62,434 bases of DNA from a virus (IMGVR_UViG_3300036859_000414:1-62434), one strand, 5' to 3'; counted from the first letter of the stretch, positions 5,463 to 58,824 are shown. Numbers and translations are program-made. The notes: generated by a model from the letters alone, not told the origin.

Positions 5463-5496
5463 GAGCCCCTAGAGCTGGTGAGTGCTCTAGGGGCTC
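5463..5496 (+). terminator. Perfect 13-bp hairpin (terminator-like, no U-tract)
   Basis: GAGCCCCTAGAGC-tggtgagt-GCTCTAGGGGCTC directly after the 5451 stop. Confidence 0.6.
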
Positions 5497-5716: not shown

Positions 5717-6400
5717 GGCGTCGGCCAGGTCTCGGCGAGGCTGAGAGCATAGTCACGTCGGGTGCTAGGAGAGAGGTAGTCGATCTGCACAATCCCAACG
5801 CCGGGTGCAAGCCAGTAGTCCATCGTCCAGATGCTCTGGCCGGTTGGATAGGAGCATCCGGCGTTCGCGCACCAGGACTGGAAGATGTGGAGCTTGACGA
5901 CGTTGCTGAAGACGAGGCCTGCGTCGGTCGTGAACGAAGAGTAGAACGCGCTGAACGTGATCTGCTGAGTCCCGTAGTTCCAGTAGCCAGAAGACACACC
6001 TGTTGAAGCTGAGACATCCACTTGCAGTGAGCGACTGACGACGTCGTAGAGGTTCATCACGCCGCCCCACTGGATTTCCTTCCCAACGACATAAACCTTG
6101 TGCACGGAGCCGTTCCAGGTTCCGACCCTCGAGGATCTGAGAGCCGTCGTCACGATACTCCCATGCGTCCAGCCAGCCGCTACTCGAGTATTCGTCGAGG
6201 CGCGTTACTGCGTTACCACGGACAGTCCCACGAAGCACGTAGCGTCGAAGGATCGTCTTTGTCGGAGAGCCGTAGGCCGATGTATGGTCCTGAGCGATAA
6301 GCTGCTCGGTAGTAGGCAGAGGCCAGTAGTCTCGAAGATCGACAGTCTGAGCCTCTGCGCTCGAAGCCAGTAAGAGCAAGAGCAGTAGTGTTGCTTTCAT
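5713..6400 (-). pseudogene. Secreted beta-rich protein split by a one-base frameshift near 6127
   Basis: Signal peptide MKATLLLLLLLASSAEA. Removing one G from GAG-G-GTC joins ...SQILE to VGTWNGSVHKV... of ORF 5713-6153. Confidence 0.6.
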
Positions 6401-27205: not shown

Positions 27206-27393
27206 TCTACTCCCTCCAGTTCCTTCATCAAACGATCAATGGTCCTCTGCGCAGAGTCTCGATGGTGAATCGCCATTTCGAGCACTGTTCGCTTCGCTCG
27301 GATCTCATCGACCGTGTACGTCTTCGTAGTCTGCAGCGGAGAGGCTACAGGCACGAGTGTGATGATCCTCTGATTGAACTGTCTTTCGTTCAT
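27202..27393 (-). CDS. Hypothetical protein
   Basis: MNERQFNQ...; RBS lies just after the structured element. Confidence 0.5.
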   Translation of the reverse strand: MNERQFNQRIITLVPVASPLQTTKTYTVDEIRAKRTVLEMAIHHRDSAQRTIDRLMKELEGVE

Positions 27394-27404
27394 CTTCCCA
27401 CCTC

Positions 27405-27498
27405 TACGAGCCTGTCGACAGTGATCGCGAGAGTGCGTAACGCTCTCACACCCCATTGCTGGGTAAGGGTCTCCCAACCCACTACCGACAAGCTCGTA
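27405..27498 (-). ncRNA. Structured multi-branch RNA element
   Basis: About 19-bp closing stem with G-U pairs on the minus strand enclosing small hairpins, one with a GCAA tetraloop. Confidence 0.5.
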
Positions 27499-27707
27499 CA
27501 GATGCCCCGAATATCGCATCGGGGCCACCGCGAGAGGTCTTACTTTGCTCCTACCCGGATCAGCAGTTCATCGAGAGTCCTAGAAAAGCTTTGAACGGAT
27601 TCTCGATCCATCCCTCCTCGGATCATGGGAGCAGCGCCTTTCCTCATTGGCTCTTCGCGACTAGACTCATCAAACAGTGTACTCAGCAACAGCAGTAGAC
27701 GTTCTTC

Positions 27708-34656: not shown

Positions 34657-34893
34657 TCATGACCTTCGTCCTTCCTTCAAGAGGCCTCGATCTCTCGCCG
34701 CACGGAGAACTGCGCTGTCACGCGCTTTCTCAGCCGCGCTGGCAGAAATCGCCTCGACGTCGAGCGTGATCTTCGGAGTGAGCGTCCCAGTGATATTCAC
34801 CACATGAGACGTAGTCTGAGCGTGCTGTTCAGCCTTCTCTAACGCACCGCTAGAGAAGCCGCACTTACAGGCGTAGAAGAGCGTAATCGCCAT
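34657..34893 (-). CDS. C2H2-like Zn-finger protein
   Basis: CKCGF...AEQHAQTTSH. Confidence 0.55.
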   Translation of the reverse strand: MAITLFYACKCGFSSGALEKAEQHAQTTSHVVNITGTLTPKITLDVEAISASAAEKARDSAVLRAARDRGLLKEGRRS

Positions 34894-34908
34894 GACGCCA
34901 AGTCCTTT

Positions 34909-35091
34909 CTAGCGCCGTGACGATGAACTTACGAGCTCAGGTCTCCGAGGAGGTGGGCGTCGTGCAGTGTCGTTTTCGTACGACGATGGAGAGCCGTAGA
35001 AGACGCCTCCATGTCTGCGACACAACCCGTTTGAAGGAAGGTGACGTGCTCTGCGGACTTTCTGGCACGTCTTACAGAAGAACCGTTTCAT
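34909..35091 (-). CDS. Small Cys-containing basic protein
   Basis: CKTC...CRRH; GAAAGGAC RBS. Confidence 0.5.
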   Translation of the reverse strand: MKRFFCKTCQKVRRARHLPSNGLCRRHGGVFYGSPSSYENDTARRPPPRRPELVSSSSRR

Positions 35092-35097
35092 AGCCTC

Positions 35098-35786
35098 GTC
35101 CTTTCGGAGCTAGAGGTGTTACGTTAACAGTAAAGGACCGTCGAGACTCCAATGGTATCTGCACCTACCTCGCCTCGACGGGAGACATCGAAGGAATGCA
35201 GCCCTCGATGAATAACGTGAGCCTCTTAGAGAGCCACTCAGGTTGATAAGACCTTTCGTGCCTTTCTAGCTCGTCTCCGACTTGGTTATCAGCCGCCTCT
35301 TCGACGCGTTGATTCTTTTTCTCGACCCAGGGCTCACAGCAAGGTCATGTGGGTCTTCTCGTGGTTTCGGAAGGGCTGTTCGACACAGTTCCCATCACTC
35401 GCCTTACCAACCTAGACCATCATCGCATCAGGGCCGCACCTGTGGATCCGAGTTACAGTCCAACTCTTCCTCACTCTGTAAACCCTGGAGTGACTTATGT
35501 CATCGGCTCTATACGCGAGACGACTTCGTTCCCTTCTGCTCTTACGAACCTGGCACCCACTGCCATCGTCGGGGATGTCCCCGATCTTTCGAGCTCTCGT
35601 ACGCTCAATAGACCTCTCCAAGCCCTCCCGCCGTGCCAGGACGGAATGTCCCAGGACAGCAGCCCGAAGAGGTCCACTCAACGTACGAGAGACGGAAAGC
35701 CGAATGGAGTGACTCATTCGAACCTTCCGTCTCCCAACCCCGTATTCGTCGCGTATCGTTCCGCGAGACTTGCCGAGGAGGCCTTT
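35098..35786 (-). ncRNA. Candidate large structured non-coding RNA (about 690 nt)
   Basis: No convincing ORF. Many nested helices, most extended by G-U pairs only on the minus strand. Confidence 0.6.
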
Positions 35787-36050
35787 CTAGGCCGTGACAG
35801 CCGCCGGAGCCGCTTCCGTGCTCTCGGCAGGAATGAGACCCTTCTGCTTCGCCAGCGCGAGAATCGCGGCATTGGTCTTGCGCCGCTTCGCTTCACGCTC
35901 ACGCATCTTCGCCTTCGCCTCGGGCGTCTGCCGCTGCTTCGCGCGATCGCGAGCCGCCGCGTTCCTCGCCTGAATCTCCAGTGCGGCCTTCGCGAGGTCC
36001 TCGTCGCTGAGCTGGCCGACTTCCGATGCAATCTCGTCGAGCATGTTCAT
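35787..36050 (-). CDS. Small Ala/Lys/Arg-rich helical protein
   Basis: GAGGAG RBS; first gene after the promoter at 36110-36138. Confidence 0.7.
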   Translation of the reverse strand: MNMLDEIASEVGQLSDEDLAKAALEIQARNAAARDRAKQRQTPEAKAKMREREAKRRKTNAAILALAKQKGLIPAESTEAAPAAVTA

Positions 36051-36109
36051 GTTGTGTAACTCCTCTTGAGGTTGTGCTCTCCCACGAACTTGTGGTCCAG
36101 ACGAAAGTG

Positions 36110-36138
36110 ATTGTCCTTCCTTTCAAAACGAAAGTCAA
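36110..36138 (-). promoter_or_regulatory. Sigma70-type promoter TTGACT-N17-GACAAT
   Basis: Read directly on the minus strand. Confidence 0.7.
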
Positions 36139-36929
36139 GCGTTTTCTTCAGAAATTTCGTTCTCAACCTCCTCGGGGAGGGCTACTCTGTTTGGCAAACC
36201 GAGGACTGCATCGCGTGCCTGTTTGAGCGCCTCTTCCATCTCGACACCGCCAACGGTATGAAGGAGTTCGGCCTGAGAGAGGATCTTCTTCATCACGTCG
36301 GGATCGGACAGAAGTTGTGCGAGCTTGTCGTCGATGTCCGTGATACGAGGAAAGAGGATCTGCTTCGCAAGCGCTTCTACTTCCTCGGGTGGGAGCGAGT
36401 CCTTTGCGCTTCTCAGAACCTGACGACTCTTCGCAGCGCTCTTTCTCGCAGCTTGCTTCCTCTTCTCTCTGTTCACGGGATCGTTGTAGTACCTCTTTCT
36501 ATACTCCACCGTTCCAGCAGGCACGCCATACTTGTTCCTCTTAGTCCTTCCGTCTCCTTCTTCTCTCGCTCCAGGTATCTGGACGAGCATAACGTTCTCG
36601 ATCTTGTTGTGAACTGGATTCCCATCCAGCCACTTCGGCTCAAGGATGAGAGGTAGCAGACCGTAACGAAGCGTCGCAAGCAGAAAGAGTTCAGGAGCAC
36701 ATCTCCCGTCTGACTCTCTCCTACACCACAAGGACCTTCGGTACGGAGATCGATACTTGTACTCCTCGAGCGCAGCGTACGCCGTGAAGCCTTGGGCTCG
36801 AAGAGCTTCATCGAACAGATCGACCTCTTGATGAACAGCGCTCGAGAACGTAGGCTTCCCTTCGTTCGTGAGGAGGTCGATGACTTGTAGTTCCTGCTCG
36901 CCAATCGGGTGGAGGGTGGTGTCAGTCAT
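36135..36929 (-). CDS. Hypothetical protein with a degenerate HNH-like motif
   Basis: KWLDGNPVHNKIENVML followed by a basic helix. Confidence 0.6.
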   Translation of the reverse strand: MTDTTLHPIGEQELQVIDLLTNEGKPTFSSAVHQEVDLFDEALRAQGFTAYAALEEYKYRSPYRRSLWCRRESDGRCAPELFLLATLRYGLLPLILEPKWLDGNPVHNKIENVMLVQIPGAREEGDGRTKRNKYGVPAGTVEYRKRYYNDPVNREKRKQAARKSAAKSRQVLRSAKDSLPPEEVEALAKQILFPRITDIDDKLAQLLSDPDVMKKILSQAELLHTVGGVEMEEALKQARDAVLGLPNRVALPEEVENEISEENA

Positions 36930-52011: not shown

Positions 52012-52061
52012 CCAGTATCCACTTGGCTCTTCGGAGCCATGACAACGGAAAAGGCCAATGA
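52008..52061 (+). CDS. 17-aa mini-ORF coupling the methyltransferase and radical SAM genes
   Basis: MTSIHLALRSHDNGKGQ*, ATGA overlaps at both ends. Confidence 0.35.
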   Translation: MTSIHLALRSHDNGKGQ

Positions 52062-53662
52062 GCAAAATCATACCTGTCTCGTCTCTCAACTCCGCTTACC
52101 AGATGAGCGGAGAGGGAAGCTGTTCGACTGTCACAACTTCGGGCCTTCCGATCAGGAAGATCCCACGCAAGAAGATTCACTGCATCCTGCCGTCGAGCCC
52201 GTGGCTGGCAGACTCGAAGACCAACGTGCCACTCGGTGTGCTGTACATCGCAGGCCTCCTGCGCGAGCAAGGACACGACGTACGAGTGACGTCGATGCTC
52301 GACAAGCGCTATGAGGGCAATATCCACCTGCCGGAAGAGGTGATGGACAGTGACGTTCACATGTTCGGGTTCTGCACGCCACAGTTCGGAGAGGCGCTCG
52401 AGCTCGCGGCGTACATCAAAGACAGGTGTCCTGAAGCGCTGCTGGTTGCTGGTGGTCCTCATCCGTCGTACGAGCCGAAAGAGGTCTACGAGGCAGGGAG
52501 ACAGGAGCATTACCATTACAAGGGTGTGCTGGCTCAGAGGAGAGACTATCGCGCGGCTGACGGACGCAGACTGTTCGACTCTGTCGTTGTGATGGAAGGA
52601 GAGGTCGCTGTGCTCCAGCTCCTGTCGGACTGGGATGCTGGAAAGCTCCAGCCGTACTACTACGGCGATAAGGCCGATGCGATGGACCTCGACGCCATTC
52701 CATTTCCGGCCTGGGATCTTCTGCCGAAGGACCACATCTACAACGACGGCGTCGCGGTCATGAAGAAGAGGTACTTCCCGTCCGATATCCATCCGGATGC
52801 GAGCGGTGCTGTCATGAGCCTCATCGGCACACGCGGATGTCCTTACAAGTGCACGTACTGCAGCACGCCGTGGATCGGACAGAAGCCACGCTATCGCTCG
52901 CCACACAACATCATCACTGAGATGAGCCTTGTCATGGACAAGGGCGTCCGGATGTTCAAGTTCCAGGACGACACCTACACGCTGCACAAGACCAAGCTGA
53001 GGGAGTTGGCCGATGCCATCGACAGTGCCTTTGGACGAGACGCTTTCGCTGCGAGAATCCATACACGAGTCAACACTATGGATGATCATGTCGCTGAGTC
53101 TCTCAAGCGCATGTCCTGCAAGGTTACGTGCTTTGGCATCGAGAGCGGATCACAGCGAGTTCTTGACGCGAATCAGAAGGGAACGAAGGTCGCGCAGAAC
53201 ACGGCTGCGATCATCAAGGCTAAGGAGCACGGCTTCTACACCATCGCGTTCCTCGTGATCGGCATGGCTGGAGAGACGCTGGAGACGATGAAGGAGACAC
53301 AGCAGTGGCTTCTCAGCGTCAAGCCCTACCTCGACTCGTGCAACCTCGCTGTCGGCATCCCGTATCCTGGCTCGAGGTGGTGGACCCATCCGCAAGAGAG
53401 CGGCATCGACATTAGGGATTACAACTACGACAACCAGTGGATCGTCGGGTTCTCGGCACGAGACGAGATCCTCGTTCGGCCACACGGAGCGACGGTCGAC
53501 GACATGTTCAAGATCAAGCGCGAGATGTTCGACTTCCTCGTGTATCACGGCTGGGCGAAGGCCGAGTGGGACGAGGATGTCAGAATCCGTAAGCAGCAAG
53601 AGCAGGCTGCTCTCGAAGGCACTCTGACGGCTGCGTCTGGCCTGACGTACGCGGGGCACTGA
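52058..53662 (+). CDS. Cobalamin (B12)-binding radical SAM enzyme
   Basis: PLGVLYIAG, VAGGPHPS, GEVA, TRGCPYKCTYC, FQDDT, FGIESGSQRVL, PYPGS. Confidence 0.93.
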   Translation: MSKIIPVSSLNSAYQMSGEGSCSTVTTSGLPIRKIPRKKIHCILPSSPWLADSKTNVPLGVLYIAGLLREQGHDVRVTSMLDKRYEGNIHLPEEVMDSDVHMFGFCTPQFGEALELAAYIKDRCPEALLVAGGPHPSYEPKEVYEAGRQEHYHYKGVLAQRRDYRAADGRRLFDSVVVMEGEVAVLQLLSDWDAGKLQPYYYGDKADAMDLDAIPFPAWDLLPKDHIYNDGVAVMKKRYFPSDIHPDASGAVMSLIGTRGCPYKCTYCSTPWIGQKPRYRSPHNIITEMSLVMDKGVRMFKFQDDTYTLHKTKLRELADAIDSAFGRDAFAARIHTRVNTMDDHVAESLKRMSCKVTCFGIESGSQRVLDANQKGTKVAQNTAAIIKAKEHGFYTIAFLVIGMAGETLETMKETQQWLLSVKPYLDSCNLAVGIPYPGSRWWTHPQESGIDIRDYNYDNQWIVGFSARDEILVRPHGATVDDMFKIKREMFDFLVYHGWAKAEWDEDVRIRKQQEQAALEGTLTAASGLTYAGH

Positions 53663-57489: not shown

Positions 57490-57933
57490 ATGACAATCGC
57501 AATCAGTTCACACGGAACAAAGGTTTCTCGAGCTCCGAGTGCTACTCCGACCACGTTCACGGAGATCGCTGAGCTGGGAGACTTGAAGCTACCCGAGCTC
57601 ATGCGCAATGAGTTCGACGCGTCGGTGCACAACAGGAACATCGACGACTACGTGCTGGGGATCATGAGAAGGAATGCCTTCTCCTTTCCCTTGAACTTCT
57701 TGCCGACGAACGCCACGCACGACCATCTGACTGGTCTGTACAAGGCGCTCATCGACAACTCGATCGACGGCTACAAAATCGTCTTTCCGGACGTGGCGCT
57801 GACGGAATGGATCCTCAGCGGCCAGGTCCAGACGATCGCACCGACAGCACCAGTGGATGGGAAGCTGAGTGCGGATGTCACCATTCGCTTCAGCGGTCCG
57901 ATGGTCGTCGGAGGTGTGGTGGTCGGTCTCTAG
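57490..57933 (+). CDS. Major tail tube protein
   Basis: FTEIAEL, LNFLP, YKIVFPD, APVDGKLSADVTIRFSG. Confidence 0.85.
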   Translation: MTIAISSHGTKVSRAPSATPTTFTEIAELGDLKLPELMRNEFDASVHNRNIDDYVLGIMRRNAFSFPLNFLPTNATHDHLTGLYKALIDNSIDGYKIVFPDVALTEWILSGQVQTIAPTAPVDGKLSADVTIRFSGPMVVGGVVVGL

Positions 57934-58039: not shown

Positions 58040-58444
58040 ATGACAACGACGTTGAATGAGGTGCCTGTGGTTGCGAAGTCCAAGGTAGTCAGCCGGAACG
58101 AGTTCCTCGCGGAGGATACCACGTTCTACAAGAAGATTCCTGGCTTCAAGCCGGACACGCTCTTCTGTCTGAGGAGTGTCTCTGCCGGTGCGATCATCGA
58201 GTGGCAGGAGGCGAACGAGGAGGCGAAGAGGACTGCAGGGCTTCGTCTGATCATTGCTGCGCTGGTTGATGGAGAGCCGGGTGTGGACGAGGGTGCGAGC
58301 GGCATGCCTCTCCTGACCGACAAGGATCTGCCGATGCTGCGGAGCAAGGCGCACAAGATCACCGAGGGCATCGTGAAGGAGATCATCGACATGAACGCCA
58401 TGCAGGTCGTCGGCGCGAAGAAGGAGGAGTCAAAAAACTCCTAA
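58040..58444 (+). CDS. Tail assembly chaperone (G)
   Basis: Between tail tube and TMP; ends TCA AAA AAC TCC TAA. Confidence 0.85.
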   Translation: MTTTLNEVPVVAKSKVVSRNEFLAEDTTFYKKIPGFKPDTLFCLRSVSAGAIIEWQEANEEAKRTAGLRLIIAALVDGEPGVDEGASGMPLLTDKDLPMLRSKAHKITEGIVKEIIDMNAMQVVGAKKEESKNS

Positions 58445-58824
58445 GGCGGAGTCCTTTACGACGTCTCGCTCACCGGCTTGCTGAAATGGCGGGTGAGTGG
58501 GACGTCGATGGGATGCTCCGCCAAATGCCGATGCAGAAGCTCTTGAGCTGGATGGCGTACTGGGAACTACAGGAGGAAGAGCAAGGGACTCCAGAGTCGT
58601 TGAGAGCGGATTACCGCGCTGCTTCGATTCGAAAGACCATTGCGGATGTCTTCCGAGGCCAGAACAAGGCGCCGTATCCGCTGGAGAACTTTCGGCTGAA
58701 GTTTGACAAGGAAGTAGAGGCGAAGACTCCTCTCACTCCAGAGGAGAAGGTTAGTCAGAACGTTGCGATAGCCCACATCATCGCGATGGCACATAATACC
58801 AGTCTGAAAGAGACGGTGCACTAG
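58432..58824 (+). CDS. Tail assembly chaperone -1 frameshift extension (GT)
   Basis: Slippery A AAA AAC at 58432-58438; the -1 frame reads LLRRSPLRRLAHRLAEMAGEWDVDGML...WMAYWE. Confidence 0.8.
   Translation, partial: KKLLRRSPLRRLAHRLAEMAGEWDVDGMLRQMPMQKLLSWMAYWELQEEEQGTPESLRADYRAASIRKTIADVFRGQNKAPYPLENFRLKFDKEVEAKTPLTPEEKVSQNVAIAHIIAMAHNTSLKETVH

What the first reader, a model, noticed from the sequence alone, without database searches (positions are those of the whole stretch)
35098..35786. Candidate large ornate non-coding RNA in the early operon
Seen: about 690 nt without a credible ORF in an otherwise gene-dense genome, packed with complementary segments. These include 35689-97/35725-33 with inner 35701-06/35715-20; 35594-603/35682-91 extending to 35611-17/35668-74; hairpin 35569-84; long-range 35511-18/35749-56; and a 3' domain 35138-45/35174-81, 35121-26/35213-18, 35112-16/35222-26. 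Segment 35633-40 lies in a loop and is complementary to 35549-56, a possible pseudoknot competing with a local hairpin. Most imperfect positions become G-U pairs only on the minus strand, which is the transcribed strand downstream of the promoter at 36110-36138. Inference: a large structured RNA in the size class of GOLLD/ROOL-type phage RNAs but not recognisable to me. The upstream basic 87-aa protein could be its partner.
Basis: partly seen in the sequence, partly recalled or inferred. Interest (0 to 1): 0.82.

Follow-up and report, generated by a model that had tools for sequence, protein, structure and literature searches.

The report
Long RNA hairpins after phage early gene
The supposed 690-base ornate RNA is really a 150-base pair of very long RNA hairpins sitting just behind a small early phage gene, followed by unstructured filler that a related phage lacks, so it looks like an ordinary message-processing or stop signal rather than a new giant RNA.

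Summary
The exceptional structure is confined to about 150 nt, 35585-35740 on the minus strand. It consists of two adjacent hairpins of 20 and 37 pairs. RNA fold z is -8.1 on minus and -3.5 on plus. There are 13 G-U pairs and no A-C oppositions. The 3' 440 nt (35098-35540) folds no better than shuffles (z -0.67). No Rfam family matches. No DNA homologue was found, so covariation could not be tested.

A syntenic IMG/VR contig (L056) has the 264-aa, 87-aa and 78-aa gene homologues. It has only 104 nt, with one 17-bp hairpin, between the last two, against 893 nt here. The window's gap is bracketed by a 17/18-nt direct repeat.

The 87-aa protein belongs to a small family. In 3 of 3 loci with DNA it follows a conserved sigma-70-like promoter and is followed by strong hairpins.

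Best reading: a cis-acting boundary element of the early transcript, most likely an RNase III site plus a 3' protective hairpin. It is not a GOLLD/ROOL-class RNA. Interest is low to moderate.

The parts
36110..36138 (-). sigma-70-like promoter (TTGACT-17-GACAAT) heading the 87-aa gene
   Evidence: 9 of 12 match. Counterparts stand upstream of the family gene in L056 (TTGACT-17-TATAAT, 11 of 12) and G005/L011 (TTGAGT-17-TATAAT, 10 of 12). The three upstream regions align with 34 invariant columns, including TTGAsTTTC and the -10.
35787..36050 (-). 87-aa basic helical protein gene (p87), member of a small uncharacterised phage family
   Evidence: Codon score +0.53. 18 proteins at E <= 0.001 in the representatives search, the query included. 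Alignment A5. G005 p84 joins by hhalign (93% probability, E 3.6e-7). No Pfam or PHROG family.
35738..35793 (-). two small local hairpins between the stop codon and hairpin A; the UAG stop (35787-35789) lies at the top of the first
   Evidence: Minimum-energy fold, pair list.
35687..35735 (-). hairpin A: 20 pairs (3 G-U), one bulged U, 8-nt loop; it encloses the SD-like GGAAGG and the AUG of the 101-aa ORF
35599..35686 (-). hairpin B: 37 pairs (10 G-U) with an 18-pair uninterrupted run, two 1x1 mismatches (G.G, C.C), a 5-nt bulge and loop AUUCC; it abuts hairpin A directly
   Evidence: Window 35601-35700 folds at -51.0 kcal/mol on minus against -22.7 on plus, the most asymmetric of 3117 windows.
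35569..35584 (-). short G+C hairpin UCGGGGACAUCCCCGA, no U tract behind it
   Evidence: no terminator-like site here.
35098..35568 (-). ORF-poor spacer without unusual folding; absent from the syntenic relative
   Evidence: z -0.67, 35 of 150 shuffles as good. No blastn or tblastx counterpart in L057.
35782..35798 (-). direct repeat copy 1 (GTCACGGC-CTAGAAAGG), spanning the p87 stop codon
   Evidence: 17 of 18 identical with one gap to 34904-34921. CTAGAAAGG occurs 3 times in the window, all here (expected 0.34; 0 of 100 shuffles reach 3).
35261..35269 (-). third copy of CTAGAAAGG inside the gap
34904..34921 (-). direct repeat copy 2; it holds the stop of the 60-aa ORF and the SD of the 78-aa gene
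34909..35091 (-). 60-aa ORF with a good SD but non-coding-like codon statistics; doubtful gene, part of the extra segment
   Evidence: Score -0.295 per codon, GC123 0.53/0.62/0.53. No Pfam or PHROG hit. No counterpart in L057.
34657..34893 (-). 78-aa gene (p78), the conserved downstream neighbour of p87
   Evidence: 45% identical to L056:1817-2086; tblastn 48% over 75 aa.

Best explanation
The finding is a composite.

(1) Its 5' 150 nt (35585-35740, minus strand) is a cis-acting RNA element of the early transcript. It consists of two abutting long hairpins placed about 50 nt behind the stop codon of a promoter-proximal small basic protein gene (p87). I take it to mark the 3' boundary of the p87 message. 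The 37-pair hairpin B is a substrate for the host's double-strand-specific RNase III. After the cut, the 20-pair hairpin A is left as a 3' cap that protects the upstream message, and the downstream genes are uncoupled. This is how the intercistronic signals of the T7 early precursor work.

It is part of an ~790-nt lineage-specific insertion between p87 and p78, bracketed by a 17/18-nt direct repeat of the old gene junction.

Shown here: the hairpins, their strand specificity, their place, the insertion, and the conserved promoter-p87-hairpin order. Inferred: transcription through the element, RNase III cleavage and the stabilising role. The confidence of 0.35 is for the specific RNase III and 3'-cap mechanism. 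That the thing is a short cis-acting hairpin element plus inserted filler, and not a large ornate RNA, I hold at about 0.75.
For: Structure and strand. 35585-35740 as RNA folds at -89.8 kcal/mol with z -8.10 on minus, against -51.9 and z -3.52 on plus (200 shuffles each). As DNA it gives only z -4.1 and -3.3. There are 13 G-U among the 57 pairs of hairpins A and B and no A-C opposition. The binomial for 14:0 over the whole fold is 1.2e-4. The region is the top minus-strand outlier of the 200-nt scan.

Substrate. Hairpin B has 37 pairs with an 18-pair uninterrupted run. The idealised E. coli RNase III substrate is 22 bp. [quoted passage not shown]

Place. The flanking genes are on the same strand. 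A promoter-like site lies upstream. No U-tract terminator lies between or behind.

Conservation of the arrangement. In 3 of 3 loci with DNA (window, L056, G005/L011), a conserved sigma-70-like promoter precedes a p87-family gene. Strong hairpin(s) begin 14-51 nt after its stop. G005 has two tandem hairpins, z -3.78, found by the covariance model at 23 bits. L056 has a 17-bp perfect stem, z -3.41.

A second structured intergenic element lies in the same operon at 27393-27537(-), z -5.14. This fits a multi-site processing scheme.

Insertion. L056/L057 has homologues of the 264-aa, p87, p78, 156-aa and 442-aa genes in the same order. It has 104 nt between p87 and p78, against 893 nt here. A direct repeat brackets the gap.
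Against: There is no homologue of the hairpin sequence, so no covariation test is possible, and conservation rests on three non-alignable loci. No RNA data exist. The host is unknown, so the presence and specificity of its RNase III are assumed.

The L056 hairpin has no G-U pairs and folds equally well on both strands, so there it could act at the DNA level or as a terminator. In G005 the second hairpin covers the SD of the next gene, which points to translational control rather than processing.

Fold outliers of z -4 to -5 also occur inside coding regions of this and a related genome (57651-57850; G004), so stability alone does not prove function. G-U enrichment could partly reflect C-to-U deamination of the non-template strand. 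The frame behind the UAG stays open for 124 codons (23 of 5000 shuffles reach this), which this reading leaves unexplained.
Confidence: 0.35

Rival explanations
1. Regulated termination/antitermination module. The hairpins are a pause or termination barrier, or an RNA recruitment site, at the end of an immediate-early unit. The basic p87 protein acts on the transcript or on RNA polymerase in cis to let transcription run on into the ~31-kb leftward gene array. This would work like lambda N/nut, or like the bipartite conAn1 protein and conAn2 RNA of pLS20.
For: A conserved promoter, small basic protein gene and hairpin(s) come in that order in 3 of 3 loci. The minus-strand gene array runs from about 37.1 kb to a strong terminator-like hairpin at 5496-5463.

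In conAn, the protein gene is followed directly by a 383-bp intergenic region that encodes the cis-acting RNA, and both are needed in cis (PMC8191782, abstract and sections 18 and 22). RNA-only antiterminators put, EAR and the 452-nt canT lie near operon starts in mobile elements (PMC11658703, passages).
Against: No U tract follows any of the three hairpins. Terminator-like sites downstream are no more frequent than in shuffles: 11 against 16.1 expected, and 13 against 11.4. p87 matches no Pfam or PHROG family. No Rfam family matches. The hairpins differ in number, length and sequence among the three loci, which is unlike a specific protein-binding site.
Confidence: 0.25
2. Functionless by-product of an insertion. 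The long imperfect inverted repeat came in with a ~790-nt inserted segment (a moron, a decayed small mobile element, or a recombination scar at a gene junction). It is merely tolerated in the transcript.
For: The whole stretch is absent from the syntenic relative. A 17/18-nt direct repeat brackets it, and a third copy of CTAGAAAGG lies inside it. L056 has a 28-nt tandem duplication across the same stop codon, so this junction is recombination-prone. The rest of the segment has neither structure nor coding signal.
Against: A count of 13 G-U to 0 A-C in 57 pairs is not what neutral decay of a DNA palindrome gives. A hairpin stands at the same place in both other loci, which lack the insertion. 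No terminal inverted repeats or transposase were seen.
Confidence: 0.15
3. One reading: a discrete large (about 690 nt) ornate non-coding RNA of the GOLLD/ROOL size class, perhaps bound by p87.
For: The whole 689 nt folds at z -5.45 on the minus strand. The stretch is ORF-poor. p87 is a basic neighbour.
Against: All the excess stability lies in the 5' 150-250 nt, while 35098-35540 gives z -0.67. The architecture is two plain hairpins. The long-range pairings are of chance length. No Rfam match was found. No promoter or terminator of its own was predicted. No tRNA genes are nearby. The stretch is absent from a syntenic relative.
Confidence: 0.05
4. Cryptic coding. Either the 101-aa ORF (35412-35717) is a real gene whose SD and AUG are locked in hairpin A, or the UAG of p87 is read through into the 124 open codons behind it.
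For: The frame behind the UAG is open for 124 codons, which only 23 of 5000 dinucleotide shuffles reach. GGAAGG lies 5 nt before the AUG, inside hairpin A. Structured RNA directly behind a stop codon is a known kind of read-through stimulator (recalled, not checked here).
Against: The codon score is -0.13 to -0.17 per codon with flat GC123 of 0.57/0.55/0.59, against 0.61/0.43/0.67 in genes. No relative was found, and the ORF is not in the protein collection. The Atlas recognition value of 1244 is in the range of shuffled sequences. No Pfam hit. All 18 family members are 70-101 aa except one of 156 aa, so none carries such an extension. L056 has no counterpart.
Confidence: 0.07

Closest known systems
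RNase III processing signals of the phage T7 early polycistronic precursor (PMC3867540, passages seen)
   Same: Irregular hairpins between cistrons of a phage early operon. The helix is longer than two turns, with mismatches and bulges that could direct single-strand cuts. A stable hairpin could remain at the 3' end of the upstream message.
   Different: Hairpin B is much longer, and it is paired with a second abutting hairpin. At most two such elements were seen in this genome (35.6 kb and 27.4 kb). Cleavage is untested and the host is unknown.
conAn bipartite antitermination system of pLS20 (PMC8191782) and RNA antiterminators put, EAR and canT (PMC11658703, passages)
   Same: A small protein gene near the start of a very long operon of a mobile element, followed directly by a long non-coding stretch containing stem-loops.
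   Different: No sequence or family match. The conAn2 stem-loops are weak (-10 and -6 kcal/mol by the paper), whereas these are extreme. No bypassed terminators were identified here.
GOLLD and ROOL large phage-associated RNAs (names and properties recalled; Rfam models searched)
   Same: Phage-borne, no ORF, several hundred nucleotides if the whole gap is counted.
   Different: No match to any Rfam model. Structure is limited to about 150 nt of simple hairpins. No adjacent tRNA genes.
Intrinsic terminators, including long-stem antitermination-resistant ones (PMC10325885, abstract only)
   Same: A strong hairpin at the end of a promoter-proximal cistron.
   Different: No U tract follows the hairpin in any of the three loci.

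Membership tests
GOLLD/ROOL-type large ornate RNAs | Match to the family covariance model | tested here: not met
   0 matches at gathering score in the whole window. In 34800-36200 only 4 matches at E 1.5-5.8, all far below gathering score and none to a large-RNA family.
GOLLD/ROOL-type large ornate RNAs | Multi-domain structure over the whole length, supported by covariation | tested here: not met
   35098-35540 gives z -0.67. Covariation is untestable because no homologue was found.
GOLLD/ROOL-type large ornate RNAs | Frequent neighbourhood of tRNA genes (feature recalled) | tested here: not met
   ARAGORN finds 0 tRNA genes in the window.
RNase III processing signal | About two helical turns (22 bp) of double-stranded RNA | tested here: met
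   Hairpin B has 37 pairs, 18 of them uninterrupted. Criterion taken from PMC3867540.
RNase III processing signal | Lies within a polycistronic transcript, between cistrons | tested here: inconclusive
   The gene layout and the lack of a predicted terminator fit this, but there is no RNA evidence.
RNase III processing signal | Cleavage by RNase III; no antideterminant pairs at the key positions | not testable with these tools
   The host and its enzyme are unknown.
Intrinsic terminator | G+C-rich hairpin followed by a U tract | tested here: not met
   No terminator-like site at 35560-35800, nor at the L056 or L011 hairpins.
Processive antitermination module (N/nut, conAn, put, EAR, canT) | Promoter-proximal position in a long operon, acting in cis | tested here: inconclusive
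   The position fits. Cis action is not testable here.
Processive antitermination module (N/nut, conAn, put, EAR, canT) | Downstream terminators that are read through | tested here: inconclusive
   Terminator-like sites are no more frequent than in shuffles. Rho-dependent sites cannot be predicted.
Processive antitermination module (N/nut, conAn, put, EAR, canT) | Sequence or profile similarity of the RNA or the protein to a known member | tested here: not met
   No Rfam match. p87 has no Pfam or PHROG family.
Small mobile element (MITE-like) | Terminal inverted repeats and multiple copies | tested here: not met
   One copy only in the record. No terminal inverted repeats were found. Flanking direct repeats are present.

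The most novel reading that the evidence does not exclude
The conserved unit of promoter, p87-family small basic protein gene and post-stop hairpin(s) is a new bipartite early-transcription switch of a group of uncultivated soil phages. In this reading p87 binds the nascent hairpin RNA, or RNA polymerase at it, and decides whether transcription or message stability extends into the 31-kb early/middle array. That would make it an N/nut- or conAn-like system with no sequence relation to either. The window's giant G-U-rich double hairpin would be an expanded version of the RNA half.
Probability: 0.2. Interest if true: 0.6.

Novelty: new member of a known kind. Interest (0 to 1): 0.3.

Why it matters
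As found, this is a corrective result. A candidate giant phage RNA shrinks to a 150-nt double hairpin plus inserted filler.

Three things remain useful. First, it is a clean example of an RNA-level, strand-specific structure, with G-U pairs only, at a defined place in an uncultivated phage's early operon. Second, there is a small uncharacterised protein family that, in every locus where DNA could be read, sits between a conserved promoter and strong hairpins. That is a testable candidate for an early regulatory module. Third, the same gene junction shows repeated rearrangement (insertion, direct repeats, tandem duplication), which illustrates how phage early regions gain sequence.

Tried and rejected
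DNA homologues of the element:
- blastn of 35000-36100 against 50,697 phage records found no match.
- blastn and nhmmer against 12 terminase-related IMG/VR loci gave only chance 13-18-mers.
- Five whole related records gave a best E of 0.24.
- An exact 22-mer scan of IMG/VR gave 0 matches.
- 26 metagenome loci found through the terminase gave none.
- L057 gave none.

Neighbour proteins as handles:
- In IMG/VR, the 264-aa, 87-aa and 156-aa proteins gave no relative. The 78-aa protein gave only an 11-residue chance match.
- The 264-aa alignment found none in metagenome or genome contigs.
- The p78 alignment found none in genome contigs.

Sequencing runs. 2 holders were listed, and no RNA holder was listed. 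Laid contigs of X1 (the probable source) and X2 were identical where they covered the stretch, so there was no natural variation to use.

Analogous outliers in a relative. The G004 scan found no comparable element in the early region. Its strongest windows (z -4.6 and -4.0) lie elsewhere.

Other checks that came back empty. No tRNA or tmRNA genes. No tandem repeats. No trans complementarity of the element to the rest of the genome beyond 15 nt, and that match is in the same sense, not antisense. BLASTP and phmmer did not link p87 and G005 p84; only the profile comparison did. Earlier findings of the scan: nothing on record. PMC4496710 held nothing on put RNA.

Considered from knowledge and rejected. 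A retron or DGR (no reverse transcriptase next to it; neighbours). A protelomerase or cos palindrome (the repeat is imperfect as DNA). An integron attC site (no R'/R'' ends seen by eye).

Full report
CONTEXT. The window is a whole IMG/VR virus record of 62,434 bp. It is linear and estimated 73% complete. It is a tailed phage with a portal protein, a family A DNA polymerase fused to a UDG domain, and a PD-(D/E)XK nuclease. Genes from about 37.1 kb down to about 6 kb lie on the minus strand, and late genes lie on the plus strand. The finding (35098-35786) lies in the minus-strand array. It sits between an 87-aa gene (p87, 35787-36050) and, further down, a 60-aa ORF (34909-35091) and a 78-aa gene (p78, 34657-34893).

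OBSERVATION: WHAT HOLDS. The stretch is ORF-poor. The minus-strand ORFs of 25 aa or more are 101, 60 and 30 aa. I built a codon log-odds score from 16 long genes of the window. Real genes score +0.32 +/- 0.18 per codon and off-frames score -0.37 +/- 0.25. On this scale the 101-aa ORF scores -0.17, the 60-aa overlapping ORF -0.02, p87 +0.53 and p78 +0.20. The 101-aa ORF has no relative and is not itself in the protein collection (7 candidates, none at E <= 1). Its Atlas recognition value of 1244 is in the range of shuffled sequences. The whole 689 nt folds at -280.8 kcal/mol on the minus strand, z -5.45, with 0 of 20 shuffles as good. On the plus strand it folds at -229.8, z -1.97, with 1 of 20 as good.

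OBSERVATION: WHAT DOES NOT HOLD. The excess stability is local. With 150 dinucleotide shuffles each:
- 35540-35800(-) gives z -6.93 (0 as good).
- 35098-35540(-) gives z -0.67 (35 as good).
- 35098-35300(-) gives z -1.95 (7 as good).
- 35300-35540(-) gives z +0.34 (91 as good).
- 34894-35098(-) gives z -0.14 (63 as good).
Strand folding gave z -6.72 for the first of these with 200 shuffles.

I also ran a 200-nt scan of the whole record on both strands, at step 50. That makes about 1,245 windows by arithmetic; the count was not printed. Energies were regressed on G+C. 35551-35750(-) is the top outlier at -108.2 kcal/mol, z -5.41, while the same window on plus gives -69.5, z +0.44. All windows within 35101-35500 lie between z -1.6 and +0.5. 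In a 100-nt scan of 3117 windows, 35601-35700 is the most strand-asymmetric window of the genome: -51.0 on minus against -22.7 on plus, 4.9 SD from the mean difference.

By my arithmetic about 3-4 perfect 8-mers are expected per 689 nt, and the self-comparison lists dozens of 8-10-mers. The minimum-energy fold uses 35749-35753 in a local hairpin instead.

ANATOMY OF THE STRUCTURED PART. The minimum-energy and centroid folds agree.
- Hairpin A (35735-35687) has 20 pairs, one bulged U and an 8-nt loop.
- Hairpin B (35686-35599) abuts it directly. It has 37 pairs in runs of 7, 18, 5 and 7. The runs are separated by a G.G mismatch, a 5-nt bulge (GGGAG) and a C.C mismatch. The loop is AUUCC.

Of the 57 pairs in A and B, 13 are G-U: 3 in A and 10 in B, by my count from the list. 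None of the non-paired oppositions is A-C, which would be G-U on the other strand. For the whole 92-pair fold the count is 14 G-U to 0 A-C, binomial p 1.2e-4.

The 156-nt core gives z -8.10 as minus-strand RNA and -3.52 as plus-strand RNA. As DNA it gives only -4.12 and -3.34. So the element is best explained as an RNA of the minus strand, which is the strand of the flanking genes. No Rfam family matches, at gathering score in the whole window or at E <= 10 in 34800-36200. In the latter search the four listed hits have E 1.5-5.8 and lie far below their gathering scores. No sigma-70-like promoter or U-tract terminator is predicted inside 35098-35800.

NO HOMOLOGUE OF THE RNA. Searches by DNA found nothing:
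- 50,697 phage records.
- 12 IMG/VR loci sharing the terminase at 25-71% identity.
- Five whole related records.
- An exact 22-mer scan of IMG/VR.
- 26 metagenome loci.

Two sequencing runs hold the stretch. One is probably the source, and the other has identical fragments. No variation was seen and no RNA run was listed.

COMPARATIVE EVIDENCE FROM THE NEIGHBOURS. A profile of p87 and its one close homologue found 18 small proteins at E <= 0.001 in 1.84 billion representatives, the query included. Seven of them are at E <= 1e-10, and most are 70-101 aa. The family has an acidic N-terminal helix (LDEIxAEVAxLSDEEL) and a Lys/Arg-rich C-terminal half ending in AKxKGL. No Pfam or PHROG family matches.

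L056 locus. A narrower alignment recovered one IMG/VR locus, L056/L057. It is syntenic with the window. tblastn finds, in the same order, homologues of the 264-aa protein (42% over 138 aa), p87 (45% over 86), p78 (48% over 75), the 156-aa protein (42% over 31) and the 442-aa nuclease (56% over 315) (p78 alignment 45% identical). In L056 only 104 nt separate p87 from p78. This spacer holds a 28-nt tandem duplication that spans the stop codon and one perfect 17-bp hairpin, with z -3.41 on the gene strand and -4.07 on the other. Nothing in L057 resembles the window's 893-nt gap by blastn or tblastx.

G005 locus. A covariance model was built from the window's two hairpins alone and searched over 567,375 bases of related loci. 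Besides itself, it found a 23-bit hit (rough E about 1e-3) in G005/L011 at 5830-5921. This hit consists of two tandem hairpins that begin about 14 nt after the stop of an 84-aa Lys/Arg-rich ORF. Their fold z is -3.78, against -2.14 on the other strand. BLASTP and phmmer do not link that ORF to p87. The profile comparison does, at 93% probability and E 3.6e-7 over 67 columns.

Promoters. All three loci have a sigma-70-like promoter upstream of the family gene: TTGACT-17-GACAAT in the window, TTGACT-17-TATAAT in L056 and TTGAGT-17-TATAAT in G005. The three upstream regions align with 34 invariant columns. So in 3 of 3 loci for which DNA could be read, the order is promoter, p87-family gene, strong hairpin(s). 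None of the three hairpins is followed by a U tract.

THE REST OF THE GAP IS AN INSERTION. CTAGAAAGG occurs three times in the 62-kb record, all on the minus strand within 34904-35790. The expectation is 0.34, and 0 of 100 shuffles reach three. The outer two copies extend to GTCACGGC(G)CTAGAAAGG, 17 of 18 identical with one gap. The first copy spans the p87 stop codon. The last holds the stop of the 60-aa ORF and the Shine-Dalgarno sequence of p78. Taken with the 104-nt spacing in L056, the simplest account is this. The ancestral junction was the p87 stop followed closely by the p78 start. About 790 nt were then inserted there, possibly in two steps given the third motif copy, with duplication of the junction sequence. 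The inserted sequence beyond the hairpins has neither fold nor coding signal. The 60-aa ORF has a good ribosome-binding site but scores -0.295 per codon, so I leave it as doubtful.

MECHANISM. What is shown is a strand-specific double hairpin about 50 nt behind the first cistron of a conserved promoter-driven unit. Its counterparts in two relatives stand at the same place but differ in sequence, number and length. What it does is inferred.

My preferred reading (0.35) is a processing and stability element. A near-continuous helix of 37 pairs exceeds the 22-bp idealised RNase III substrate. Mismatches and bulges in such sites can restrict cleavage to one strand and leave 3' ends that stabilise the upstream message. 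The T7 early precursor is processed at five such signals (PMC3867540, passages seen). Hairpin A would be the cap that remains. A second structured intergenic element in the same operon (27393-27537(-), z -5.14) fits a multi-site scheme.

The main rival (0.25) is a termination/antitermination switch in which p87 is the protein partner. It would be analogous to the conAn1 protein and conAn2 RNA of pLS20, where the protein gene is followed by a 383-bp intergenic RNA region acting in cis (PMC8191782, abstract and sections 18 and 22). It would also be analogous to put, EAR and canT (PMC11658703, passages).

Results against both readings:
- The L056 hairpin is strand-symmetric.
- The G005 second hairpin covers the next gene's ribosome-binding site.
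- Fold outliers of z -4 to -6 also occur inside coding sequence.
- Predicted terminators downstream are not enriched.

One observation is left unexplained. The reading frame behind the UAG of p87 stays open for 124 codons, a length reached by only 23 of 5000 shuffles, yet it has non-coding codon statistics.

VERDICT. The interpretation as a large ornate RNA is not supported. What is there is a new, orphan example of a known kind of thing: a cis-acting hairpin element at a cistron boundary in a phage early operon. It lies at the edge of a lineage-specific insertion. The conserved promoter-p87-hairpin unit is the part worth following up.

Noticed in passing
window 57600-57900, minus strand: Very stable fold antisense to a plus-strand 147-aa late gene (57490-57933). 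z is -6.07 with 100 shuffles. It ties with the finding as top minus-strand outlier of the 200-nt scan: -104.8 kcal/mol on minus against -82.2 on plus. It could be an antisense RNA or chance.
   Followed up: partly
window 58421-58540, plus strand: Strongest plus-strand 100-nt fold outlier (z -4.89). It lies at the junction of a 191-aa and a 112-aa ORF, just upstream of the 960-aa tape-measure-like ORF. By position it is a candidate tail-chaperone frameshift stimulator.
   Followed up: no
window 27393-27537, minus strand: Second structured intergenic element in the leftward operon: a long stem with a three-way junction just upstream of a GAGGUGG-AUG start. z is -5.14 on minus and -3.62 on plus. 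It was also a weak hit of the hairpin model at 15 bits.
   Followed up: partly
window 35782-35798, 35261-35269, 34904-34921: CTAGAAAGG occurs three times in the record, all here. The outer copies extend to a 17/18-nt direct repeat that brackets the 893-nt gap.
   Followed up: yes
L056 1691-1746: A 28-nt tandem duplication spans the TAA stop of the p87 homologue, directly before the 17-bp hairpin (read). This is the same gene junction that is rearranged in the window.
   Followed up: partly
window 35412-35789, minus strand: The frame behind the UAG stop of p87 stays open for 124 codons, which 23 of 5000 shuffles reach. Codon statistics are non-coding-like. The AUG and an SD-like GGAAGG of the 101-aa ORF sit inside hairpin A.
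   Followed up: partly
window 52058-53662: A B12-binding radical SAM protein is encoded among the late genes, which is unusual cargo for a structural region.
   Followed up: no
window 5463-5496, minus strand: Strong terminator-like hairpin (13 pairs, 9 G-C, T-rich tail). It probably marks the end of the ~31-kb leftward array.
   Followed up: no
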